This document shows positions 1-13,400 of a stretch of DNA of 64,000 bases, one piece after another; position 1 is the first letter of the stretch, and each line of letters opens with the position of its first letter. A program made the translations under genes and the position numbers. The stretch is from an uncultured Candidatus Saccharibacteria bacterium (GTDB lineage: Bacteria > Patescibacteriota > Minisyncoccia > UBA6257 > 2-01-FULL-56-20), in the NCBI GenBank assembly GCA_964361095.1, contig CAYHZA010000004.1:2236-66235 (forward strand), given 5' to 3'. The notes below the pieces were generated by a model that did no database searches, was not told where the DNA came from, and saw only the letters and a list, made by a program, of their open reading frames with translations.

Positions 1-339
1 ACTCGTCCTGTTGTTATTCACGAAAATAAGGGTGGCAATTTAGGAATACATCCTTTTTCCACCGCTTTGCGCGCCAACGGCTCATATAACTACGTTACTG
101 TGAATGGCGAACGCCGACTTACTCCGAGGGAGATGTTGCGCTTACAGGGTTATCCGGACACATTCAAAATGGTTGTGCCCGACACGCAGGTTAGGAAACA
201 GGCTGGCAATAGCGTAGTTATTCCAAAGATTGAAGCCGTTGCACAAGCAATGGTTCAAGCAATGAGCCAAAAACCGCAACGCAAGCCGGTTCAGTCCGAT
301 TTATTCGCAACAGAAGAAAAAATATATGCGCACAAATAA
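1..339 (+). CDS. DNA (cytosine-5)-methyltransferase, C-terminal fragment (5' end lies outside window)
   Basis: Frame 1 is open from nt 1 with no stop. The translation ...GERRLTPREMLRLQGYPDTF...QAGNSVVIP carries the C-terminal C5-MTase motifs (R-x-T-x-RE-x-x-RLQGFPD and Q-x-GNSV). Confidence 0.8.
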   Translation, partial: TRPVVIHENKGGNLGIHPFSTALRANGSYNYVTVNGERRLTPREMLRLQGYPDTFKMVVPDTQVRKQAGNSVVIPKIEAVAQAMVQAMSQKPQRKPVQSDLFATEEKIYAHK

Positions 340-1396
340 TAACTTATCAAAGAAAGCGTTGGATTTGGTAATTCGCAAATCGCGCGTTCATTTGTATAAA
401 CCAATCCAGATTGCCGAAATTTTACATCATCACAGAACAGAACGCGGTTTGGATTTAAGCGATTTGCAAGCATATCGCAATATTTCCAAGCGTTGGCGTG
501 ATGAAGTGTCTTTGCTTTTGGTTGGACGACGAAGCACCTCAAGTCAAAAGTATCAAGACAATGTTTTTGAAGCCAACGCCATGCCGCCCGAACTGCTTGC
601 AAAACTCGGCGAGATAAACAAGAAAAGCAAAGGGGTCGTTGAGGCATACATCTACAAAGCTTTAGAAGCGCGTCTCTCGTCCGTTCGAGAAGTTGAAGAT
701 TATATAAGAAAATCAACACCGGACACTTTTGATCTCAAAAAGCTAGTTTCTATTTTCCAAACTACGCCGGGTTTACGTCGTAGCGTAGATAAAATGTACG
801 AAATTTTGATTTATGCTCTTTTTACGACAATCGTCCGCGCGTTGAAAGCGCAAGTAACTTTGGAAATTGGAAATAAAGACAAAGAAATTTTGAAGGACTT
901 TGAACGATTTATAAAAATGGTTCTTGGTATTGACGCAAAACAAACACGACTTGTTTCGCCCGCAGCACTGTATCGCGTTGGCGTTACAAATGCCTCGGAT
1001 AGAGGTTTGGACATCTGGGCTAACTTTGGCCCGGCAATTCAAGTTAAACACCTTACTCTTACGCCGGAACTTATGGAGGACATCGCAGGCGACATAACTT
1101 CCGACAGAATTGTGATTGTTTGTATTGATACCGAGCGAGAAACGATTGAGGCATTGCTCAAACAAGTCGGGTGGAGCGAACGAATACAGGGCGTCATTAC
1201 CATTAACGACTTGGATGATTGGTACAAACTTTGTTTGAGCAAAAAATACAGAGCTAATCTCGACGCAAAATTATTGCAAGATGTAGGACGAGAATTTGCC
1301 GCGGAATTTCCGTCAAGCAAAGAAATCGCGCCGTTTATGGCAAAACGTGGGTATGACAAAATCGTCATGCCCCCTGATTGGCAAATTCAAATCTAA
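326..1396 (+). CDS. putative type II restriction endonuclease (uncharacterised family)
   Basis: 356-aa ORF overlapping the MTase 3' end by 14 nt and followed 8 nt later by vsr. The MTase-REase-Vsr gene order is typical of m5C restriction-modification systems. No catalytic motif was recognised by eye. Confidence 0.4.
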   Translation: MRTNNNLSKKALDLVIRKSRVHLYKPIQIAEILHHHRTERGLDLSDLQAYRNISKRWRDEVSLLLVGRRSTSSQKYQDNVFEANAMPPELLAKLGEINKKSKGVVEAYIYKALEARLSSVREVEDYIRKSTPDTFDLKKLVSIFQTTPGLRRSVDKMYEILIYALFTTIVRALKAQVTLEIGNKDKEILKDFERFIKMVLGIDAKQTRLVSPAALYRVGVTNASDRGLDIWANFGPAIQVKHLTLTPELMEDIAGDITSDRIVIVCIDTERETIEALLKQVGWSERIQGVITINDLDDWYKLCLSKKYRANLDAKLLQDVGREFAAEFPSSKEIAPFMAKRGYDKIVMPPDWQIQI

Positions 1397-1403
1397 CGTA
1401 TGT

Positions 1404-1805
1404 ATGGACACTGTTTCAAAACAAAAGCGAAGCGAAATAATGTCTCGGATAAAAAGCCGAGACAGCAAAATTGAGACACTCTTTCGCAAAGAACTTTGGA
1501 AATTAGGATTTCGTTATCGCAAAAACTCTGGCAAATATTTTGGGAAGCCGGATATTGTTTTAAAACAACACAAAACCGTCGTTTTTATTGATTCCTGTTT
1601 CTGGCATGGTTGCAAAAGACATTGTCGCATTCCGACTGTTCGTAAAAGTTACTGGACGCAGAAAATCGCACGGAATGTAACGAGGGATAAGGAGGTTACA
1701 AAGCACTATAAGAAGCGGGGGTGGAAAATTTTTAGAATTTGGGAGCACAAATTAACAATGGGAATGCCAAAAGTGCTAAAAATTGTCCAATCCGAGCTCA
1801 AGTAG
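1404..1805 (+). CDS. vsr: very short patch repair (Vsr) endonuclease
   Basis: Motif FIDSCFWHGC, the signature Vsr F-x-D-G-C-F-W-H-x-H/C region. The ATG at 1404 follows the upstream stop at 1394-1396, giving a ~133-aa product. Confidence 0.85.
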   Translation: MDTVSKQKRSEIMSRIKSRDSKIETLFRKELWKLGFRYRKNSGKYFGKPDIVLKQHKTVVFIDSCFWHGCKRHCRIPTVRKSYWTQKIARNVTRDKEVTKHYKKRGWKIFRIWEHKLTMGMPKVLKIVQSELK

Positions 1806-1861
1806 CTTATCCAAAGCGAAAAGTCCTTGACTCCACAAAGATTGTGGAGTAGTATTGAAAT

Positions 1862-2461
1862 ATGACGAAGAATCAGGAAAATCTCATACGCTTTATAGCC
1901 GACTACAGGGTTAAGTACGGTGCCTCGCCTACGCTTCAGGAAATGGTGGCAGGCATTCATGTTTCTGACCATAAATCTGTAAGCGGCATTATTTCCGCCC
2001 TTACAAAACAAGGATTTTTAGAGAAAGGCAAGCAAAAAACCAGGTCGATTCTCTTGACCGATAAGGCATTTGAGTTGCTTGGTATTCCGCTTTTCCGTCG
2101 TCAACAACTGGAAGAATTTAACTACTCCTTCCGACAAATGTCGCCTGCCAGCAGTGGCCTAATTACCTCTCCCACTCCAGATTATATAAGGCACGGCGAA
2201 CAGTCTATAAAAACTGATATAAAAACTGACGGGACAAATTTAACTAATGATTTACGAACAGTCGTAGGAAATACTGTGGCCGGTATTGCAACCAAAATAT
2301 ATGCGAATGAAGAAGCGGGAGCAATTTTTAGCTGGGCATTGCTACTGGGCGGGCTAACCTGGGCAAACACCGGCATAATCGGAAACGGAACGAGTGCCCT
2401 TATTTGGACAGCAGTCGAAGCCGTAATAATCAAATTTTTAAGTAAAAAAATAACACTATGA
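1862..2461 (+). CDS. LexA-type winged-helix DNA-binding protein without S24 peptidase domain
   Basis: The N-terminal ~75 aa (NLIRFIADYRVKYGASPTLQEMVAGIHVSDHKSVSGIISALTKQGFLEKGKQKTRSILLT) align to the LexA N-terminal DNA-binding domain. The C-terminal ~90 aa is Gly/Ala-rich and hydrophobic (WALLLGGLTWANTGIIGNG) and has no Ser-Lys peptidase motifs. The stop overlaps the next start as ATGA. Confidence 0.6.
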   Translation: MTKNQENLIRFIADYRVKYGASPTLQEMVAGIHVSDHKSVSGIISALTKQGFLEKGKQKTRSILLTDKAFELLGIPLFRRQQLEEFNYSFRQMSPASSGLITSPTPDYIRHGEQSIKTDIKTDGTNLTNDLRTVVGNTVAGIATKIYANEEAGAIFSWALLLGGLTWANTGIIGNGTSALIWTAVEAVIIKFLSKKITL

Positions 2462-3411
2462 GTCTTGGAATTAACACGACAACGCCGGAAGGAATCGTTT
2501 TAGCCGCCGACAGTCGGCAGTCATATCGTAACCAAAAAGGTATGAGCAGAATCGGCTCCGATTCTGCGTCAAAAGTTTTCAAGATAAATGACAGGGCGGG
2601 TTTGATAGTTGCGGGGCTAGCATTTTTGCCGGAAAATGGCGTCTTGAAAAACATCAGCAGGTTTGTGGAAGAATTTAAGAAAAGTATTGAGACTGAAAAA
2701 ATAACAATCCTAGAAACCGCCCAAAAATTGAAAGATTTTTTTGAAGAAAAATATCAATACAAAGACCAGCTAAAAATTCTCCCTAATCAAATAAAAGCGG
2801 ATTTGGAACGACAAGGCTGTCAAATAATAGAGATTAAAGAAGAAAGCGGTCATGTTAAGTTTAAGTTTAAGGATCCTAAGGGAATTCAAAAAGAAGGGAT
2901 AGCGGGCGTAGAGCAGTTGCAGTTTATTGTCGCCGGTTACAATCAAGATAAATCGCATCAAGTTGCGATGGTGTATATTCCTGGCAATGTTGAGCTCAAG
3001 AGAGATAGCGCAAAGCGAGGGCAAGAATATGGTGCCAGTTGGATAGGTCAGATTGATGTGGTATCAAGAATCGTTCTTGGTTTTGATGGACGTATTGGCA
3101 ATTTGCCGGCCATGCAAAAAATGGCTTCCGATATGGGTGCCCAAGAGGTTCAAAAACAATTGAGGAGTTTGGAATACGTCATTCAGTGGGGAACCATGAC
3201 TTTGCAGGACGGTATTGATTTTAGTACATTAGCAATCGGAACAACTACGGCCATTCAAAGATTTTCTGATGGTATCGCGGGCGACCCTGGCGATATGCCT
3301 GGCGTAGGTGGCTCGATTGACGTTGCCGTTATAACGCCGGAAAAGGGATTTGTATGGATTGCAAAGAAAAATTTGAAAGTTGGAGATAAAGAGGTAGATT
3401 TAGAAAAATAG
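2458..3411 (+). CDS. proteasome-beta-like Ntn-hydrolase family protein
   Basis: N-terminus GINTTTPEGIVLAADSRQS...SKVFKINDRAGLIVAG resembles the proteasome/HslV beta-subunit active-site region (Thr nucleophile, AADxR, K-x-x-x-I-x-D...AG). At 317 aa it is longer than canonical beta subunits. Confidence 0.5.
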   Translation: MSLGINTTTPEGIVLAADSRQSYRNQKGMSRIGSDSASKVFKINDRAGLIVAGLAFLPENGVLKNISRFVEEFKKSIETEKITILETAQKLKDFFEEKYQYKDQLKILPNQIKADLERQGCQIIEIKEESGHVKFKFKDPKGIQKEGIAGVEQLQFIVAGYNQDKSHQVAMVYIPGNVELKRDSAKRGQEYGASWIGQIDVVSRIVLGFDGRIGNLPAMQKMASDMGAQEVQKQLRSLEYVIQWGTMTLQDGIDFSTLAIGTTTAIQRFSDGIAGDPGDMPGVGGSIDVAVITPEKGFVWIAKKNLKVGDKEVDLEK

Positions 3412-3541
3412 CCGCCGCCAAAAATCCCGTTCGTCCGAGCGAGGGTGCGGCGGAAAAAAAGGGGGGGTGAGGGGGCAGCTTCCTTAGTTCCGCTCAAAGA
3501 ATGCTCGAGCGAAGTTGTATAATTCTACGATATTAAATAAA

Positions 3542-3570
3542 TTGACAAAAACAATGAATCAGCTACAATA
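3542..3570 (+). promoter_or_regulatory. sigma70-like promoter (TTGACA-N16-TACAAT) driving the riboswitch
   Basis: TTGACA at 3542-3547 and TACAAT at 3564-3569. Confidence 0.5.
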
Positions 3571-3589
3571 AACTTACAACTGAATAAGC

Positions 3590-3695
3590 AGTTATCAAGA
3601 GCGTGGCGAGAGCAACTGGCTCAATGACCCACCGGCAACCCTCGGAAACGAGAAGGTGCCAAATCCAGCCCCAACAGGGGAAAGATGATAGTCGT
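3590..3695 (+). ncRNA. SAM-I (S-box) riboswitch aptamer
   Basis: UUAUCAAGAG...GUGGCGAGAGCAACUGGCUCAAUGACCCACC...GGCAACC-cucgGAAAcgag-GGUGCCAAAUCCAGCcccaacagggGAAAGAUGAUAG matches the S-box consensus P1-P4, including the GNRA-capped P3 and the AAAUCC and AGAUGA elements. Confidence 0.7.
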
Positions 3696-3697
3696 TA

Positions 3698-3731
3698 CTC
3701 TTTCCTATGTTTCGGAAGGAGTTTTTTATTT
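3698..3731 (+). terminator. riboswitch expression-platform intrinsic terminator
   Basis: Stem CTCTTTCC/GGAAGGAG with an 8-nt loop, followed by TTTTTTATTTAT. Confidence 0.6.
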
Positions 3732-3748
3732 ATAGGCGAATAAATAAA

Positions 3749-4000
3749 ATGATCGAAATTTCAGAAAAAGATATAGATAAATACAAGTTCATAGGTAGCG
3801 CAGGGGGCTTCTCTTTGGGGTTTTGTGTTTACCTTGCACACAGGCACACACCGAACTTTTTTAATCGTGTAGTCGGCTATCGCATTGAAGAGCGTGGCAT
3901 CGGCGAAATGATGAGCGAAGCTGCTCGAAAAGTAGGACTTCCCAAAGAAAAGCAGAAGTATATAACCATCAGTTTCTACGAGGAGAAAACTATTAACTAA
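3749..4000 (+). CDS. hypothetical protein (riboswitch-controlled)
   Basis: ORF 3707-4000 trimmed to the first ATG after the terminator. No recognisable motifs. Confidence 0.35.
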   Translation: MIEISEKDIDKYKFIGSAGGFSLGFCVYLAHRHTPNFFNRVVGYRIEERGIGEMMSEAARKVGLPKEKQKYITISFYEEKTIN

Positions 4001-4009
4001 AACAAATTT

Positions 4010-4402
4010 ATGAACAACCACGACTTTATCAGTTTCGTGCCATATCCGCTAGAGATAAAGGAGCGGCCAGAGTTAGATGTTTTTCCGTTGAATGTTCTAT
4101 TTGCTAAACTCGGAATAAGGAACGGTAAAAATGCCATGGGTACCGCCTTATATGAGCCAAACTTGGAATCGTTTAAACGAGAGGAAAATAAATGTTCTAT
4201 AGAGTATTACAATATTCATGGGGGCAAGAGCCGGCTGGTAATTGAGTACGATATGCTGAGGAAAAGTTATCATGGCGAAAAAGTAGTAAATGGAGAATTG
4301 GCAGGGATGGCTTCCGGTCCAGAATGGAAGATGTTTTTCGTCCACTTCACGATGTTGGGATTAACTAAAGGGGAGATGTGTGAATTTGAAGATATTGGTT
4401 AA
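4010..4402 (+). CDS. hypothetical protein (riboswitch-controlled)
   Basis: 130-aa ORF 9 nt after the preceding stop, same strand, no intervening terminator. No recognisable motifs. Confidence 0.4.
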   Translation: MNNHDFISFVPYPLEIKERPELDVFPLNVLFAKLGIRNGKNAMGTALYEPNLESFKREENKCSIEYYNIHGGKSRLVIEYDMLRKSYHGEKVVNGELAGMASGPEWKMFFVHFTMLGLTKGEMCEFEDIG

Positions 4403-4447
4403 TTTTGATAATCTATTTTTATTATCCACGCCCCCATTTTTCCACCC

Positions 4448-5074
4448 ATGACCAAAAAGGAACTTTTGGAACAATTAGAAAAAGAAATAGCCGCGGATGT
4501 CTCGCTTCAGCTTCGGGAGTCAAATTTGGTTTTTGGCGAGGGGAATCCCGATTGCGATGTTTTGTTTATTGGTGAAGCCCCGGGATTTCACGAAAACCAA
4601 CTGAAGCGTCCCTTCGTCGGACGTGGCGGCCAACTGCTCGATCAATGCATCACAATGATCGGCTGGAAGCGCGAGGATGTTTACATTACAAATATTGTGA
4701 AGCGCCGCCCGCCGGAGAATCGCGACCCCTTGCCGGAGGAAATTGAATCCTATAAGCCCTACCTCACGCGGCAGATAGAAATTATCGATCCCAAGGTAAT
4801 CGTACCCCTCGGACGTTTCGCGATGAATTATTTTCTGCCGGAGGCAAAGATTTCGCGTGATCAGGGCACGGCCTTTCGCGTGGACGGGCGTCTTGTGGTG
4901 CCGGTTTTCCATCCCGCCGCCGCGCTCCGAGGAACGGGGGTCTTAAATGAGTTCAAAGAAAGCTTCAAAAAGCTTCCGAAGATTATTTCAGGAGATGGTT
5001 TGCCCAAAGAAATCGCACCGGCGTTTCCCGCATCGCGCAAGGATAATCCTCCGCCCCAGGCGAAGCTTTTTTGA
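4448..5074 (+). CDS. uracil-DNA glycosylase, family 4
   Basis: GEGNPDCDVLFIGEAPGFHENQLKRPFVGRGGQLL matches the family-4 UDG motifs (GE-G-x-x-A-x-x-M-x-V-GEAPG, PFVG-x-AG-x-LL). HPAA near the C-terminus matches the H-P-S motif region. Confidence 0.85.
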   Translation: MTKKELLEQLEKEIAADVSLQLRESNLVFGEGNPDCDVLFIGEAPGFHENQLKRPFVGRGGQLLDQCITMIGWKREDVYITNIVKRRPPENRDPLPEEIESYKPYLTRQIEIIDPKVIVPLGRFAMNYFLPEAKISRDQGTAFRVDGRLVVPVFHPAAALRGTGVLNEFKESFKKLPKIISGDGLPKEIAPAFPASRKDNPPPQAKLF

Positions 5075-5125
5075 TTCGTCTTTTTCTCCTTCGCTTCGGG
5101 GTTTTTCAGATGTATAATAGAGGGA

Positions 5126-5500
5126 ATGAATTTCGCTCCAACGTATTTGCTCGGCCGCTTCTTCTATCGAATTTACGATTTTCTGCATCATTGGTATTTT
5201 GACGGTTCTCGGGCGTTCTTCCACCGTTTTGTGGCCGTTCTCGAGGTATTTGAACGGATCTTCGCGGTAGGAATGACGGCAAGATTTTTTTTCCATCCGC
5301 TCTATGGAGATTACACCTTGGTCGGAAGAATTTTGGGTTTTATTTTCCGGTCGTGCCGCATCGCAATCGGTCTTTTTGTGTACATAATCCTTCTCGCGAT
5401 CTTTCTTTTCCTGTACGCGATTTGGCTTTCGTTCCCCGCCATCCTTGTTTTTTATGCCGTTTTGAACTTTGTTAAGCCTTCATCACTCCCCGTCTTATAG
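5126..5500 (+). CDS. hypothetical membrane protein
   Basis: 124-aa ORF with a hydrophobic C-terminal half, ending 18 nt before the Clp-like gene. It competes with an antisense ORF, so the call is weak. Confidence 0.3.
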   Translation: MNFAPTYLLGRFFYRIYDFLHHWYFDGSRAFFHRFVAVLEVFERIFAVGMTARFFFHPLYGDYTLVGRILGFIFRSCRIAIGLFVYIILLAIFLFLYAIWLSFPAILVFYAVLNFVKPSSLPVL

Positions 5501-5517
5501 ATTATGTACCTATCGCT

Positions 5518-8046
5518 ATGACGCCTAAAACATACGAACTGTACTTTGATGATCCACGTCTTCGGATGACGATTGGGGGCAGGTTTCTCGTACGGGTCGT
5601 AAGTTACGTATCTTATTTATTTATCGTTGCCGCATTTTTCACGCTCTTTTTTTCGGGGATTCGCCCGCTTCAGTCTTTAGGCGCCTTGATCGCGCTTTTT
5701 TTGATCGACTACTTCCTCCATTTCCGGGAAGCCGATAGTCATCTCACCGAGCTTCCTTCCGGGGAGGCTTTGGTGAACGCGGCGCGGTATCTTTCGCCTG
5801 CCGCTTTTTCGCACATTGAGCACGCGTACCAGAGAAGCTCGTTCTCTCGTGGAAATTTTTTTGTAGAACTCGCGGTGCAGCTTTTGGGCGTACGCGAGAT
5901 CCGTGAAGGAATCAATCGTCTTGATGTGAAGCCCACTGAGTTCAAAGAAAAGGCGGAAGAACTTCTCCGCGCTGAAGACAATCGGGAGAAGATCACCAAA
6001 GACGAACGGCGGGCGAAGGTTGCGCTTCTCGGCACGCGCGCGTTTACGCAGGCGCTTCGGAGCGAGCGTCGGTTTGTCGGGATCTCTGATGTATTCTCCG
6101 CGCTTTCGCTGGTCGGAGATCCTTTGATCGATCGGCTTTTTAATGTTTTTGCGATCGAGAGCGGGGATTTGGAGCGCGCTTTGATTTTAAGCGCAGAACG
6201 GAAGCCCTTTGGCATTTTTTTCCGGCTTCCCAGAACGATAGGAAGTTTTATTTTTGAATCGTACCGTTCCTCGCGTCACCGCGTAGTGAATCGCGCGTGG
6301 ACATCCCGCCCGACTCCCACGCTTGACCAGTTCAGCACGGACTTCACCGATCTCGCGCGTCGCGGGGAGATTGGGTTTTTAATTGGGCACAAGGCGGAAT
6401 ACGAGCGCATGACGGATGTGCTCTCGCGCGCGACGAATCCGAATGCGCTTCTCGTGGGAGAGGTGGGGGTCGGGAAAGAAACCATGATCGCTCATCTCGC
6501 GCTTGATCTTGTAAAAGACAGGGTACCTGCCGCGCTTTTTGATAAGCGGCTTGTGGGGTTGCATCTGGGAACGCTTGTTGCCGGCGCTCCGCCGGACGAG
6601 CTCCAGAAGCGGCTTACGCGGATTGTCCAAGAGATCTCGCTTGCCGGCAATGTGATTCTTTATATTCAAGATATTCACAATCTGGTTAAAACTTCGGGTT
6701 CCGCCTATCTTTCCGCCGCGGATGCTCTGATGCCCATTATTATGAACAGTGCTTTTCCCGTTGTGGGGACGACGTATCCGAGGGAGTTCAAAGAGTTTCT
6801 CGAACCGAGGACGGATGTCGCGGGAGTGTTCGAAGTCTTGAACGTCAACGAGCTTTCCGAAGGAGAGGCCGAAGAGGTACTTGCCTATGAGACGCTTCTT
6901 ATGGAGAAAAAGGCGAATGTTATCGTGAGTTTCGGAGCGATCAAGCAAGCGGTATCTCTCGCGAAAAAATATTTCCGCGCGAAGCTCTTGCCCTCGAGCG
7001 CCGAAGAACTTTTGCGGGACGCGGTAAGCGAGGCGGCGCGGCGCGGGGAGAATACCGTGAACGCGGAGAGCGTCATCCGCGTTGCCGAGACGAAGGTAAA
7101 TATTCCGCTTCATACTGCAGACGCCACCGAAGCGGACACGCTTTTGAATATGGAAGCGATCATCCATAAGCGTTTTGTGGATCAAGACGAGGCGGTAACC
7201 GCCGTTTCGAACGCGCTTAAGGAATATCGCAGTGGTCTGAGCCGTTCCGGAGGTCCCATCGCCACCTTTCTTTTTGTGGGTCCCACGGGAGTCGGAAAAA
7301 CCGAACTCTCAAAAGTTCTTGCCGAGATCCAATTCGGCTCCGAAAAAGCAATGGTTCGTTTTGACATGTCCGAATACCAAGAGAAGGAAAGCATCAACCG
7401 CTTTATCGGATCCTCGGGCGGGCAAACAACGGGCGCGTTGACCGACGCGATTACCGCGCATCCCTACGCCCTCGTTCTTCTCGATGAATTCGAAAAGGCG
7501 CATCCCGATATCCTTAATCTTTTTCTTCAGGTGTTTGATGACGGGCGCCTTACCGACAGTTTGAATCGGACGGTTGATTTTTCGAATACTATCATCGTCG
7601 CGACTTCGAACGCGCATTCCGATATTATCGTACGCGCCATCGAAGAGGGACAGGCGATCGGCGATATCGCCGAATATTTAAAAAAACGCCTGCTGGATGT
7701 TTTTAAGCCGGAACTTTTGAATCGTTTCACGAAGATCATTGTCTTTAAAAACCTCGGTCCGGCGGAACTCGTGAAGATTTCCGAACTGAACCTCCGTTCG
7801 TTCGCGGCGCTTCTTGCGAGGAAGGGCATCGTCTTTGCTTTCGAAGAAGAAGTAGTGCGGAAGATCGCTTCGTTGGGATTCGATCCGGTATTTGGCGCCC
7901 GACCGCTCCGCAGAGTTCTTGAGGAAAAAATTCGTGTTCCGCTCGCGGAAAAGATTTTGCGCAAAGAGGTACGGCGCGGGGAGGGGGTGAGGGCGGTTCT
8001 CAAGGCGGGCGAGATAGTGCTCGTGACCGAAGCGGGCGGTGTGTAG
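5518..8046 (+). CDS. Clp-family double-AAA+ ATPase (ClpA/ClpC-like) with N-terminal membrane anchor
   Basis: The D2 Walker A is FLFVGPTGVGKTEL and Walker B is LLDEFEKAH, with the C-terminal GARPLRRVLEEKI motif. D1 has GEVGVGKETMI and YIQDIHNL. The N-terminal ~70 aa are hydrophobic rather than a Clp_N domain. Confidence 0.8.
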   Translation: MTPKTYELYFDDPRLRMTIGGRFLVRVVSYVSYLFIVAAFFTLFFSGIRPLQSLGALIALFLIDYFLHFREADSHLTELPSGEALVNAARYLSPAAFSHIEHAYQRSSFSRGNFFVELAVQLLGVREIREGINRLDVKPTEFKEKAEELLRAEDNREKITKDERRAKVALLGTRAFTQALRSERRFVGISDVFSALSLVGDPLIDRLFNVFAIESGDLERALILSAERKPFGIFFRLPRTIGSFIFESYRSSRHRVVNRAWTSRPTPTLDQFSTDFTDLARRGEIGFLIGHKAEYERMTDVLSRATNPNALLVGEVGVGKETMIAHLALDLVKDRVPAALFDKRLVGLHLGTLVAGAPPDELQKRLTRIVQEISLAGNVILYIQDIHNLVKTSGSAYLSAADALMPIIMNSAFPVVGTTYPREFKEFLEPRTDVAGVFEVLNVNELSEGEAEEVLAYETLLMEKKANVIVSFGAIKQAVSLAKKYFRAKLLPSSAEELLRDAVSEAARRGENTVNAESVIRVAETKVNIPLHTADATEADTLLNMEAIIHKRFVDQDEAVTAVSNALKEYRSGLSRSGGPIATFLFVGPTGVGKTELSKVLAEIQFGSEKAMVRFDMSEYQEKESINRFIGSSGGQTTGALTDAITAHPYALVLLDEFEKAHPDILNLFLQVFDDGRLTDSLNRTVDFSNTIIVATSNAHSDIIVRAIEEGQAIGDIAEYLKKRLLDVFKPELLNRFTKIIVFKNLGPAELVKISELNLRSFAALLARKGIVFAFEEEVVRKIASLGFDPVFGARPLRRVLEEKIRVPLAEKILRKEVRRGEGVRAVLKAGEIVLVTEAGGV

Positions 8047-13078: not shown

Positions 13079-13398
13079 GGGGATGACCGGCTTCGATGGA
13101 AATGCGTCATGAACCGGCGAGCCGAGCGCAGTCTCGTAAATCCTGCAAAATTATTAACTGCCAACTCTAATCGAGTTACAGCTCCAGCGTTCGCTTACGC
13201 GTAACGCAGGACATCGGCTAACTTGTGTCTCTTAGGTTAAATACTGGTGTAATATAAGGAGGCTCGCCAAGCACGTTTCGCTTCGTGATGTGCTCGGCTA
13301 AAAATAGCGAAGCAAAATTCTTGATCCAATCAAGATACGCTCGTAGATAGTTCATCGATAGTATTTTCAGACGGCGGTTCAATTCCGCCCATCTCCAC
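13079..13398 (+). ncRNA. ssrA: tmRNA (SsrA)
   Basis: 5' GGGGATGACCGGCTTCGATGG compares with E. coli GGGGCTGATTCTGGATTCGACGG. The 3' end GACGGCGGTTCAATTCCGCCCATCTCCAC is a tRNA-like T-arm and acceptor. An internal tag ORF GCC AAC ... GCG TAA at 13160-13204 encodes ANSNRVTAPAFAYA*, preceded by CUCGUAAA as in E. coli. smpB lies immediately downstream on the opposite strand. Confidence 0.8.
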
Positions 13399-13400
13399 AA

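What the first reader, a model, noticed from the sequence alone, without database searches (positions are those of the whole stretch)
3542..4402. SAM-I riboswitch controlling two uncharacterised small proteins
A promoter (TTGACA-N16-TACAAT) is followed by an aptamer with the S-box hallmarks. It has the P1 UAUCA/UGAUA pairing, a K-turn-containing P2, a GNRA-capped P3 (cucgGAAAcgag) and the AAAUCC and AGAUGA elements. A terminator hairpin with a T-tract (3698-3731) follows. The first genes downstream are two ORFs (84 and 130 aa) with no recognisable similarity to methionine/SAM biosynthesis or transport proteins, and then a uracil-DNA glycosylase. SAM riboswitches almost always front met/SAM genes. 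Unannotated cargo is therefore a candidate for a new SAM-related function, for example a SAM-utilising enzyme, a SAM-binding regulator or a salvage step. A SAM-I element in this type of reduced genome is also notable.
Basis: partly seen in the sequence, partly recalled or inferred. Interest (0 to 1): 0.6.

Follow-up and report, generated by a model that had tools for sequence, protein, structure and literature searches.

The report
SAM riboswitch driving mobile two-protein cassette
A genuine SAM-sensing RNA switch in an ultrasmall groundwater bacterium controls two small proteins of unknown function instead of methionine genes, and the whole 0.9-kb unit sits beside restriction-modification and other phage-defence genes in many related genomes.

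Summary
Window 3589-3691 (+) is a full-length SAM-I aptamer (Rfam RF00162, 71.1 bits against a gathering score of 44.4). A near-consensus promoter precedes it (3542-3569). A terminator (3697-3722 plus a T-run) follows it and competes with an antiterminator built from the aptamer's 3' side, which is the classic SAM-OFF design.

ORF1 (3749-4000, 83 aa) and ORF2 (4010-4402, 130 aa) are real, conserved genes. Neither matches anything in Pfam, NCBIfam, PHROGs, PADLOC or PDB. ORF2 folds confidently (pLDDT 92.6) with no structural neighbour in the two libraries I could search.

The riboswitch-to-cargo link is conserved. In 20 of 24 distinct related loci, a SAM-I aptamer directly precedes ORF1, ORF2 or both, in either gene order. 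Covariation is strong (17 pairs with compensatory changes), and one locus uses a translational platform instead of a terminator.

Homology between loci starts at the promoter and ends about 20 nt after ORF2, so this is a discrete cassette of about 870 bp. In 11 of 13 loci with enough flanking sequence, it lies within 10 kb of restriction-modification or other defence genes, including in this window.

Biochemical function remains unknown. My best inference is a response to low SAM that is tied to defence or mobile islands, not to methionine or SAM biosynthesis.

The parts
3542..3569 (+). Sigma-70-type promoter, TTGACA-16 nt-TACAAT
   Evidence: It matches 11 of 12 consensus positions. The -10 box and the leader downstream of it are conserved in related loci.
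3589..3691 (+). SAM-I (S-box) riboswitch aptamer with P1-P4 and the P2-loop/J3-4 pseudoknot
   Evidence: RF00162 at 71.1 bits against a gathering score of 44.4, full length. In 20 distinct homologous aptamers, 91.9% of cells are paired and 17 of 34 pairs show double changes. No shuffle out of 500 reaches these values, and slid controls give 40-52% pairing. The pseudoknot CUGG/CCAG has one compensatory G-C to A-U change, in L023.
3673..3711 (+). Predicted antiterminator: the P4-3'/P1-3' segment (GGGGAAAGAUGAU) pairs with the 5' arm of the terminator (CUCUUUCC)
   Evidence: Folding 3672-3735 gives this helix at -13.2 kcal/mol. It is mutually exclusive with both P1/P4 and the terminator. This rests on energetics only and is not significant against shuffles (z = -1.5).
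3697..3728 (+). Intrinsic terminator: 9-bp stem, 8-nt loop, then U6
   Evidence: Found in the terminator scan. Folded alone: -11.9 kcal/mol, z = -3.6. Equivalent terminators are present in most related loci.
3749..4000 (+). ORF1, an 83-aa soluble protein from an unnamed conserved family
   Evidence: 67 clusters at 90% identity, none with a Pfam domain. 17 columns are invariant, including a G-x-A-x-G-x-S-x-G-x-C-x-Y motif plus His and Arg. Differences from homologues fall at codon positions 1/2/3 as 130/69/301. No hits in Pfam, PADLOC, PHROGs, NCBIfam or PDB. The hydropathy maximum is 1.1, so no membrane helix is expected. The structure model is poor (pLDDT 62).
4010..4402 (+). ORF2, a 130-aa soluble, mostly beta protein from an unnamed conserved domain family
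   Evidence: 286 representatives at 50% identity with E <= 1e-3. 21 columns are invariant, including ALYEP, W..FF.HF..LGL..GE.C. The AlphaFold2 model has pLDDT 92.6 and pTM 0.86. Foldseek finds no match at E <= 1e-3 in PDB or BFVD, and no top-50 match exceeds TMq 0.39. Codon-position differences are 287/180/505. No family hits.
3557..4425 (+). Extent of the conserved cassette (-10 box through about 20 nt past the ORF2 stop)
   Evidence: blastn against 22 loci shows every alignment starting at 3544-3592 and ending at or before 4441. No flanking sequence is shared.
1..1805 (+). Context, not part of the cassette: C-terminus of a C5 DNA methylase (1-339), HaeII restriction endonuclease (326-1396) and Vsr mismatch endonuclease (1407-1805)
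   Evidence: PF00145 at 1.6e-15. PF09554 at 6.9e-126 and PF03852 at 9.7e-29. Positions 1-4450 run at about 0.37-0.46 GC, against about 0.50-0.59 downstream.

Best explanation
Shown:
- The RNA at 3589-3691 is a bona fide SAM-I riboswitch working as a transcriptional OFF switch.
- With SAM bound, P1/P4 hold the sequence GGGGAAAGAUGAU, the terminator at 3697-3722 forms, and transcription from the promoter at 3542 stops.
- When SAM is scarce, that sequence pairs with the terminator's 5' arm, and RNA polymerase reads into ORF1 and ORF2.
- Promoter, riboswitch, ORF1 and ORF2 form a self-contained cassette of about 870 bp, found in many unrelated genomic positions in Paceibacterota-like (CPR) bacteria.

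Inferred:
- ORF1 and ORF2 are two soluble proteins that work together. They co-occur in either gene order, and each can also stand alone behind the same riboswitch.
- They are produced only when SAM runs low.
- The cassette lies almost always inside restriction-modification/defence or mobile-element islands, and it has no similarity to any Met/SAM enzyme or transporter.
- Its most likely role is therefore an accessory response that links low SAM to methylation-based genome defence. It could be a back-up or abortive response when SAM is depleted, for example by phage SAM-degrading enzymes. It could instead protect against the cell's own restriction enzymes when methylation fails.
- Met/SAM supply is the less likely role.
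- The biochemical activity of the two proteins is unknown.
For: Riboswitch:
- RF00162 at 71.1 bits.
- Covariation across 20 distinct aptamers.
- Promoter and terminator, and alternative antiterminator/terminator folds.
- An independent platform type in L025, where the ATG lies 3 nt after the aptamer.

Conserved linkage:
- The aptamer sits directly upstream of ORF1 and/or ORF2 in 20 of 24 distinct loci.
- Gene order is reversed in L025.
- ORF2 stands alone behind the riboswitch in L020, L023, L039 and L041. ORF1 is present without ORF2 in L001 and L026.

Real genes: third-position bias and conserved families.

Cassette limits.

Not canonical cargo: no Pfam, NCBIfam, PHROGs, PADLOC or PDB hits.

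Context:
- Restriction-modification or other defence genes lie within 10 kb in 11 of 13 loci with about 5 kb or more of flank.
- In the other 59.5 kb of this window, only three PADLOC families match, one ORF each, among 53 ORFs. No restriction-modification family appears among the 25 most frequent of 90 matched Pfam families.
- A distant ORF1 homologue without a riboswitch (L045) also sits in a defence island.
- ORF2-domain fusions include TPR (three times), a polymorphic-toxin-type DSP phosphatase, and CpXC.
Against: - No biochemical or phenotypic evidence exists.
- The defence link is guilt by association only. It comes from a modest number of metagenome contigs, several from the same aquifer, with no formal enrichment statistic against a matched background.
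- CPR genomes are rich in restriction-modification systems, and mobile DNA of any function accumulates in the same hot spots.
- Neither protein matches any PADLOC model, and no homologue was found in phage collections.
- The neighbouring systems are heterogeneous (types I, II, III and IV), so no specific partner enzyme is indicated.
- Two well-flanked loci show no defence genes: L015 lies next to tmRNA, FtsH and RecG, and L041 lies next to a transposase.
- SAM riboswitches overwhelmingly control sulfur/SAM metabolism, so a metabolic role has a high prior.
- The antiterminator is supported only by energetics (z = -1.5).
Confidence: 0.5

Rival explanations
1. The cargo has a metabolic role. ORF1/ORF2 would be a new SAM/methionine-homeostasis function for a Met/SAM-auxotrophic symbiont, for example a binding or scavenging protein, a small enzyme pair acting on SAM by-products, or a factor that spares SAM. 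The position next to defence genes would be incidental.
For: - Known SAM-I regulons are almost all sulfur/Met/SAM genes (established knowledge of the S-box regulon).
- The conservation pattern looks enzyme-like or ligand-binding. Invariant Cys, His, Tyr, Arg and a Gly-rich loop occur in ORF1. Invariant Glu, Lys, Trp and Cys occur in ORF2.
- The weak top Foldseek hits for ORF2 are lipocalin-like ligand-binding barrels, none significant.
- Both proteins are soluble.
Against: - No similarity to any Met/SAM enzyme, transporter or binding protein in four profile libraries and PDB.
- The cassette is mobile and patchy, not a fixed core gene.
- No neighbouring Met/SAM gene appears in any of the contexts examined.
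- The location is repeatedly in a defence island, even for a homologue without a riboswitch.
Confidence: 0.28
2. The cassette is a selfish or addiction-type module. It would be a small toxin/antitoxin-like pair, or another element that maintains itself, which has captured a SAM riboswitch and spreads among island hot spots without benefiting host defence or metabolism.
For: - It is a discrete cassette of about 870 bp with its own promoter, found in unrelated contexts.
- It sits next to transposases, integrases or recombinases in several loci, and some copies are disrupted by IS elements.
- It has a two-small-gene architecture.
- A HicB/HicA-like pair lies directly downstream in L026, identified by my reading of the sequences and a weak PHROG hit.
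Against: - Either gene occurs alone behind the riboswitch, which an obligate toxin-antitoxin pair would not tolerate.
- There is no match to any known TA family.
- No terminal repeats or recombination sites were identified at the cassette ends. Only blastn limits were examined.
- Both proteins are under strong purifying selection across loci.
Confidence: 0.12
3. The feature is not functional: the aptamer is a decaying relic, or the ORFs are not real genes.
For: One non-canonical pair and one G-U pair in the window's P1. No obvious Shine-Dalgarno sequence before either ORF.
Against: - The hit is full length and 27 bits above threshold.
- Compensatory changes occur in all helices.
- Promoter and terminator are intact.
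- Both ORFs show codon-position bias and have dozens to hundreds of homologues.
- The ORF2 model is confident.
Confidence: 0.03

Closest known systems
SAM-I / S-box riboswitch (Rfam RF00162), as in the Bacillus subtilis yitJ/metI and Thermoanaerobacter tengcongensis metF leaders
   Same: Same four-helix aptamer with a K-turn-type P2, the P2-loop/J3-4 pseudoknot, conserved core nucleotides, and terminator/antiterminator OFF logic.
   Different: The cargo is not a Met/Cys/SAM gene but two unnamed small-protein families. The riboswitch travels with its cargo as a mobile cassette. The host is a CPR/Paceibacterota-like bacterium. One relative (L025) has switched to a translational platform.
Candidate defence genes identified by 'defence island' neighbourhood (the guilt-by-association approach of Makarova 2011 and Doron 2018, cited from my own knowledge)
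   Same: Small uncharacterised genes repeatedly found next to restriction-modification, AIPR, Schlafen-AlbA_2, GmrSD and Mrr genes in variable regions.
   Different: No PADLOC model matches. No phenotype is known. Control by a metabolite riboswitch is, as far as I could find, not described for such genes (searches found nothing comparable for SAM).
c-di-GMP-riboswitch-associated type I toxin-antitoxin modules next to CRISPR arrays in Clostridioides difficile (PMC5961336; abstract and search listing only)
   Same: A riboswitch in a defence-island neighbourhood, associated with very small proteins.
   Different: A different ligand and RNA class. Those are membrane toxins with antisense RNA antitoxins. 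Here both proteins are soluble, and no antisense RNA is evident.
Phage SAM-degrading enzymes (T3 SAMase, Svi3-3 SAM lyase) as counter-defence against SAM-dependent restriction-modification and BREX (PMC7877911; bioRxiv 10.1101/2023.02.27.530186; abstracts)
   Same: They supply the biological rationale: infection can lower SAM, which is exactly the signal that would switch this cassette on next to methylation-based defence systems.
   Different: Those are phage proteins. Nothing here is homologous to them, since the PDB fold search gave no such hit. No CPR phage SAMase was examined.
Restriction alleviation in type I restriction-modification systems (PMC11109961; abstract)
   Same: The concept that cells need a safeguard against their own restriction enzymes when unmethylated sites appear. 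Low SAM would create that situation.
   Different: The known mechanism is ClpXP proteolysis of the restriction subunit. No similarity or test connects ORF1/ORF2 to it. ORF2 is only mildly acidic (pI 5.6), unlike DNA-mimic anti-restriction proteins.

Membership tests
SAM-I riboswitch (RF00162) | Covariance-model score at or above Rfam's gathering threshold, with a full-length match | tested here: met
   71.1 bits against 44.4, model positions 1-108 of 108. 20 further loci score 52.6-69.9 bits.
SAM-I riboswitch (RF00162) | Four-way junction P1-P4 supported by compensatory base changes | tested here: met
   On 20 distinct sequences, double changes occur in P1 (3 pairs), P2 (4 pairs over two segments), P3 (8 pairs) and P4 (2 pairs). 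91.9% of cells are paired, against 40-52% when partners are slid, and no shuffle out of 500 reaches the observed values. Caveat: the alignment was fitted to the model, and the sequences are related.
SAM-I riboswitch (RF00162) | Pseudoknot between the P2 loop and J3/4 | tested here: met
   CUGG (3616-3619) pairs with CCAG (3665-3668). RNAalifold recovers the pairing, and L023 shows one G-C to A-U double change.
SAM-I riboswitch (RF00162) | Conserved ligand-pocket and K-turn nucleotides (AGAG in J1/2, GCAACC/GGUGC in P3, GA/UGA in P2, AGAU at P1) | tested here: met
   All the upper-case consensus positions are matched in the cmscan alignment. 42 columns are invariant across 16 homologues.
SAM-I riboswitch (RF00162) | Expression platform in which the aptamer's 3' strand competes with a terminator or a ribosome-binding site | tested here: met
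   Terminator at 3697-3722 plus U6. An alternative antiterminator uses 3678-3690. L025 is a translational variant.
SAM-I riboswitch (RF00162) | Selective binding of SAM over SAH | not testable with these tools
   Needs in-line probing, ITC or a transcription assay.
Canonical S-box regulon | The downstream gene belongs to Met/Cys/SAM biosynthesis, salvage or transport | tested here: not met
   ORF1 and ORF2 have no hit in Pfam, NCBIfam, PHROGs, PADLOC or PDB sequences.
Anti-phage defence system | Preferential location next to known defence genes | tested here: inconclusive
   11 of 13 well-flanked loci have restriction-modification or defence genes within 10 kb. The rest of this window shows almost none. 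No formal genome-wide statistic was possible.
Anti-phage defence system | Homology to a described defence protein family | tested here: not met
   No PADLOC hit at E <= 0.1 for ORF1, ORF2 or the accessory small ORFs.
Anti-phage defence system | Protection from phage on expression | not testable with these tools
   Needs an experiment.
Type II toxin-antitoxin pair | Obligate two-gene unit with recognisable toxin and antitoxin folds | tested here: not met
   Either gene occurs alone behind the riboswitch. No TA family matches.

The most novel reading that the evidence does not exclude
The SAM-I riboswitch would act as an infection or danger sensor, not as a metabolic feedback device. A fall in SAM could come from phage SAM-degrading or MetK-inhibiting counter-defence proteins. 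In a SAM-auxotrophic episymbiont it could also come from loss of supply that leaves new DNA unmethylated. Either way, the fall derepresses a mobile two-protein module in the defence island. That module then either provides second-line or abortive immunity, or restrains the cell's own restriction enzymes. This would be the first metabolite riboswitch shown to gate an immune or autoimmunity-control function, and it would assign roles to two new protein families, one of them with an unmatched fold.
Probability: 0.22. Interest if true: 0.88.

Novelty: new variant of a known kind. Interest (0 to 1): 0.62.

Why it matters
SAM-I is among the best-understood riboswitch classes, and its regulon is considered essentially closed around sulfur and SAM metabolism. 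Here the same sensor is hard-wired to two protein families that have no name. One of them has no detectable structural relative in the libraries I could search. The sensor and its cargo move together as a cassette through restriction-modification/defence islands of CPR bacteria.

This gives a directly testable handle on three things:
- what ultrasmall, SAM-dependent symbionts do when SAM runs out;
- whether SAM level is used as a signal in genome defence, given that phages are known to destroy SAM to escape restriction;
- the function of a family with about 290 clusters of 'hypothetical' proteins.

If the cargo turns out to be metabolic after all, it would still be a new SAM-related activity.

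Tried and rejected
- **Profile searches.** I searched ORF1, ORF2 and the accessory small ORFs against Pfam, PADLOC, PHROGs and NCBIfam, and found nothing.
- **PDB sequence profiles.** Only chance-level hits, E >= 0.09.
- **Fold search, ORF2 model.** The best PDB hits were lipocalin-like barrels (Tp0751, phenolic acid decarboxylase, FABP) at TM 0.3-0.34 and E > 0.1. BFVD gave TM <= 0.39. I rejected all of these as non-significant.
- **Fold search, ORF1 model.** Meaningless, because the model is poor (pLDDT 62).
- **Phage origin.** No ORF1 relatives in IMG/VR and no tblastn hits in 50,697 phage records. A SAM-I pattern scan of viral contigs found only an unrelated Firmicutes-type leader before a permease.
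- **Membrane-toxin idea for ORF1.** Rejected, because hydropathy is too low.
- **DNA-mimic anti-restriction idea for ORF2.** Not supported, at pI 5.6.
- **The 169-aa gene before the distant ORF1 homologue in L045.** It is not an ORF2 relative (hhalign probability 0.4%), and no riboswitch is present there.
- **The 97-aa reading of ORF1 from ATG 3707.** Rejected, because its first 14 codons are not conserved and overlap the terminator.
- **Literature.** Six searches found no description of a SAM riboswitch in CPR, or of one linked to restriction-modification or defence.
- **First attempt to seed locus retrieval with the ORF2 alignment.** It failed because no sufficiently conserved peptide stretch was available.
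Full report
**1. The observation**

An Rfam scan of the whole 64-kb window gives two hits above threshold. One is a tmRNA at 13079-13400. The other is the SAM-I (S-box) aptamer RF00162 at 3589-3691 on the + strand, at 71.1 bits against a gathering score of 44.4 (E = 1.3e-14). It covers all 108 model positions.

- A promoter-like site, TTGACA-16 nt-TACAAT, lies at 3542-3569 and matches 11 of 12 consensus positions.
- A terminator-like hairpin at 3697-3722 is followed by TTTTTT.
- ORF1 runs 3749-4000 (83 aa) and ORF2 runs 4010-4402 (130 aa).
- A family-4 uracil-DNA glycosylase follows at 4448-5074.

**2. The switch mechanism**

Folding 3692-3735 alone gives the terminator at -11.9 kcal/mol (z = -3.6). 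Folding 3672-3735 gives an alternative helix at -13.2 kcal/mol. In that helix, GGGGAAAGAUGAU pairs with CUCUUUCC. The first sequence is the 3' strand of P4, J4/1 and the 3' strand of P1. The second is the 5' arm of the terminator.

The two structures exclude each other, and the second is possible only when P1/P4 are not formed. This is the standard S-box logic: SAM bound means terminator and OFF, and SAM scarce means antiterminator and ON. The antiterminator rests on energetics only (z = -1.5). It has not been shown by experiment.

**3. Conservation of the RNA**

I retrieved loci encoding relatives of ORF1 or ORF2 from genome and metagenome collections.

- RF00162 scores above threshold directly upstream of the ORF1/ORF2 relative in 20 of 24 distinct loci. 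A model built from these aptamers found the remaining members.
- The four exceptions are:
  - a copy truncated at its 5' end by an inserted element (L019);
  - a truncated ORF2 beside an IS200 transposase (L029);
  - one close relative without a leader (L016);
  - the most distant ORF1 relative (L045, 43% identity).
- On 20 distinct aptamers, 91.9% of cells form standard pairs. When partners are slid by 1-3 columns, this falls to 40-52%.
- 17 of 34 pairs show changes on both sides, spread over P1, P2, P3 and P4. No shuffle out of 500 reaches the observed values.
- The P2-loop/J3-4 pseudoknot (CUGG/CCAG) carries one compensatory change.
- Caveats: the sequences are related, and the alignment was fitted to the structure.
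- Platforms differ between loci. Most have a terminator. In L025 the start codon lies 3 nt after the aptamer, so the GGGAAAGA at the 3' end of the aptamer would double as the ribosome-binding region. Independent platforms on the same aptamer-cargo pair argue for real regulation.

**4. The cargo genes are real**

- ORF1 has 67 clusters at 90% identity, all 47-151 aa, none with a Pfam domain. Its alignment has 17 invariant columns.
- A profile of ORF2 finds 286 representatives at 50% identity with E <= 1e-3, and 72 with E <= 1e-30. Its alignment has 21 invariant columns.
- Differences between the window and nine homologues fall at codon positions 1/2/3 as 130/69/301 for ORF1 and 287/180/505 for ORF2. 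This is the signature of purifying selection on proteins.
- Both proteins are predicted soluble, with maximum 19-residue hydropathy of 1.1 and 0.8.
- ORF2 gives a confident AlphaFold2 model: pLDDT 92.6, pTM 0.86, a meander of antiparallel strands with two helices.
- Foldseek finds no match with E <= 1e-3 in PDB or BFVD, and no top-50 match exceeds TMq 0.39.
- The ORF1 model is poor (pLDDT 62).
- Neither protein, nor the extra small ORFs found in some operons, matches Pfam, NCBIfam, PHROGs, PADLOC or PDB sequences.

**5. Architecture of the unit**

- blastn of window 2401-6000 against 22 loci shows similarity starting at 3544-3592. That is the -10 box and leader. It ends at or before 4441, no more than about 40 nt past the ORF2 stop. 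No flank is shared.
- The window's GC content rises at the same point, from about 0.37-0.46 (positions 1-4450) to about 0.50-0.59.
- Promoter, riboswitch, ORF1 and ORF2 therefore form a discrete cassette of about 870 bp. The uracil-DNA glycosylase is a resident neighbour, not cargo.
- Variants behind the same riboswitch:
  - ORF1-ORF2, the most common form;
  - ORF2-ORF1 (L025);
  - ORF2 alone (L020, L023, L039, L041);
  - ORF1 without ORF2 (L001/L011, L026);
  - an extra 93-aa gene before ORF1 (L009/L012);
  - an 82-aa gene between the two ORFs (L002);
  - a 139-aa gene before ORF2 (L036).
- Co-occurrence in both orders suggests the two proteins work together. Solo occurrences argue against an obligate toxin-antitoxin pair.

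**6. Genomic context**

In the window, the cassette sits in a low-GC block, in this order:
- the C-terminus of a C5 DNA methylase (1-339, PF00145);
- a HaeII restriction endonuclease;
- a Vsr endonuclease;
- a protein with a LexA-type DNA-binding domain;
- a proteasome/Ntn-like protein.

| Locus | Neighbouring genes |
|---|---|
| L020 | two C5 methylases, BpuJI-like endonuclease, Vsr, Schlafen-AlbA_2, AIPR |
| L023 | C5 methylase, BsaWI endonuclease, Vsr |
| L026 | type I HsdM/HsdS, RhuM, Fic |
| L036 | N4/N6 methylase and a type III Res-like endonuclease |
| L039 | N4/N6 methylase and MutH |
| L040 | UvrD helicase and Mrr_cat |
| L001/L011 | GmrSD upstream; Schlafen-AlbA_2/HATPase_c_4 protein downstream (hits a PADLOC pAgo-associated model) |
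| L029 | N4/N6 methylase, HicA |
| L045 (no riboswitch) | N4/N6 methylase, PLD-SNF2 helicase, Eco57I-type methylase, HNH |

- That makes 11 of 13 loci with roughly 5 kb or more of flank.
- The exceptions are L015, next to tmRNA, FtsH and RecG, and L041, next to a DDE transposase.
- Recombinases, integrases, transposases and a polyvalent-protein domain also recur.
- As a crude background, I scanned the other 53 ORFs of this window (59.5 kb). They are housekeeping genes plus a polysaccharide-synthesis cluster. Only three PADLOC families match at 1e-10, one ORF each. No restriction-modification family appears among the 25 most frequent of the 90 Pfam families matched.
- This is suggestive, not a statistic. 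Several contigs come from one aquifer, and CPR genomes are rich in restriction-modification systems.

**7. Domain fusions of ORF2 relatives**

I scanned 20 of the longer family members.
- Three carry TPR repeats.
- One carries an N-terminal dual-specificity phosphatase of the type catalogued in polymorphic-toxin/conflict systems (PF22785, PF22784).
- One carries CpXC.

The phosphatase fusion sits among ECF sigma, Ser/Thr kinase and AAA/WD40 genes, which I take to mean a non-CPR genome. These fusions fit a protein-interaction or conflict-system module, but they do not define an activity.

**8. Interpretation**

*Shown:* a bona fide SAM-I OFF switch, a conserved link to two new protein families, the cassette nature of the unit, and its recurrent island context.

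*Inferred:* the two proteins are made when SAM is low and act together. Their role relates to the methylation-dependent defence neighbourhood and not to SAM supply.

Two concrete versions of the inferred role:
- (a) Low SAM as an infection signal. Phage SAM lyases are known counter-defences against restriction-modification and BREX (PMC7877911; bioRxiv 10.1101/2023.02.27.530186; abstracts seen).
- (b) Low SAM as a danger to self. A restriction-rich, SAM-dependent symbiont would need a safeguard against self-restriction, in the sense of restriction alleviation (PMC11109961; abstract).

The main rival is a new metabolic or SAM-homeostasis function with incidental location. A selfish module is less likely, and a non-functional relic is essentially excluded.

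My rough weights are:
- defence/island-linked low-SAM response: 0.5, of which the specific 'sensor of SAM depletion for immunity or autoimmunity control' reading is about 0.22;
- metabolic: 0.28;
- selfish: 0.12;
- artefact: 0.03.

**9. Comparison with what is known**

As an RNA, this is a regular member of RF00162, and every sequence- and structure-level criterion I could test is met. Its regulon is atypical.

Six full-text searches found nothing describing SAM riboswitches in CPR/Patescibacteria, or SAM riboswitches linked to restriction-modification or defence islands. The nearest analogue found was c-di-GMP riboswitches near type I toxin-antitoxin modules beside CRISPR arrays in C. difficile (PMC5961336). 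The library lacks most subscription-journal papers, so absence there is weak evidence.

I rate this a new variant of a known kind: a known sensor with new, conserved, mobile cargo in a new biological setting.

**10. Limits**

- Taxonomic labels of short contigs are unreliable. Two carry non-Paceibacterota bin names.

Noticed in passing
L020 2514-2634 (-) and 11559-11679 (-): Two copies of the LOOT RNA motif (RF03000, 87.8 and 93.6 bits) bracket a block of about 9 kb. The block holds AIPR, Schlafen-AlbA_2, Vsr, two C5 methylases, a restriction enzyme, the SAM riboswitch-ORF2 unit and three small ORFs. LOOT copies may mark island boundaries or repeats of a mobile element.
   Followed up: no
window 1862-3411 (+): This is an overlapping gene pair inside the low-GC island. 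The first is a 199-aa protein with a LexA-type DNA-binding N-terminus (PF01726 at 22.5 bits; TIGR00498 at 2.3e-5). The second is a 317-aa protein with a weak proteasome/Ntn-hydrolase N-terminus (PF00227 at 22.6 bits; archaeal proteasome beta at 3.8e-5). The combination is unusual, of unknown role, and absent from the other loci.
   Followed up: partly
window 13079-13400 (+); L015 3304-3728 (-): A tmRNA gene (139 bits) lies about 9 kb from the cassette in the window. In L015 a tmRNA lies directly after the cassette. Islands near tmRNA are classic integration hot spots.
   Followed up: no
L025 9868-9971: The aptamer ends 3 nt before the ATG of the ORF2 homologue and has no terminator. This implies translational control in this locus, whereas most relatives use transcription termination.
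   Followed up: partly
L025 10732-12018; L039 7600-8373; L026 17384-18334; L029 12440-13354: Trypsin_2-type serine proteases recur downstream of, or near, the cassette in four independent loci. Two of them are on the same strand, one or two genes after ORF2.
   Followed up: partly
L026 10119-10704: Here ORF1 is followed by a 115-aa and a 77-aa pair that look like HicB/HicA. The evidence is a weak PHROG HicB-like hit (E = 0.049) and a GSH...HP motif on my reading of the sequence.
   Followed up: no
L019 1340-1410; L029 5529-6523: Two cassette copies are disrupted by mobile elements. ORF1 is truncated at its 5' end next to an HTH/transposase-like gene. ORF2 is truncated to 90 aa beside an IS200 Y1 transposase.
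   Followed up: partly
L039 6637-6838: The SAM-I aptamer in this locus spans 202 nt, so it carries a large insertion. The gene caller read through it, giving a spurious 182-aa ORF2 product (P0015). L010 likewise has an insertion of about 30 nt in P4.
   Followed up: no
window about 29000-56000: This region is a large cluster of NAD-dependent epimerases/dehydratases, glycosyltransferases and O-antigen-ligase-like genes (8 Epimerase hits and 7 GDP_Man_Dehyd hits). It includes two matches to 'GT4 in conflict systems' (PF20706).
   Followed up: no
L044 8807-8911 (IMG/VR contig): A contig labelled viral carries a SAM-I aptamer (56 bits with my model) directly before a 459-aa multi-pass permease. 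This is an ordinary Firmicutes-style arrangement, unrelated to the cassette.
   Followed up: partly
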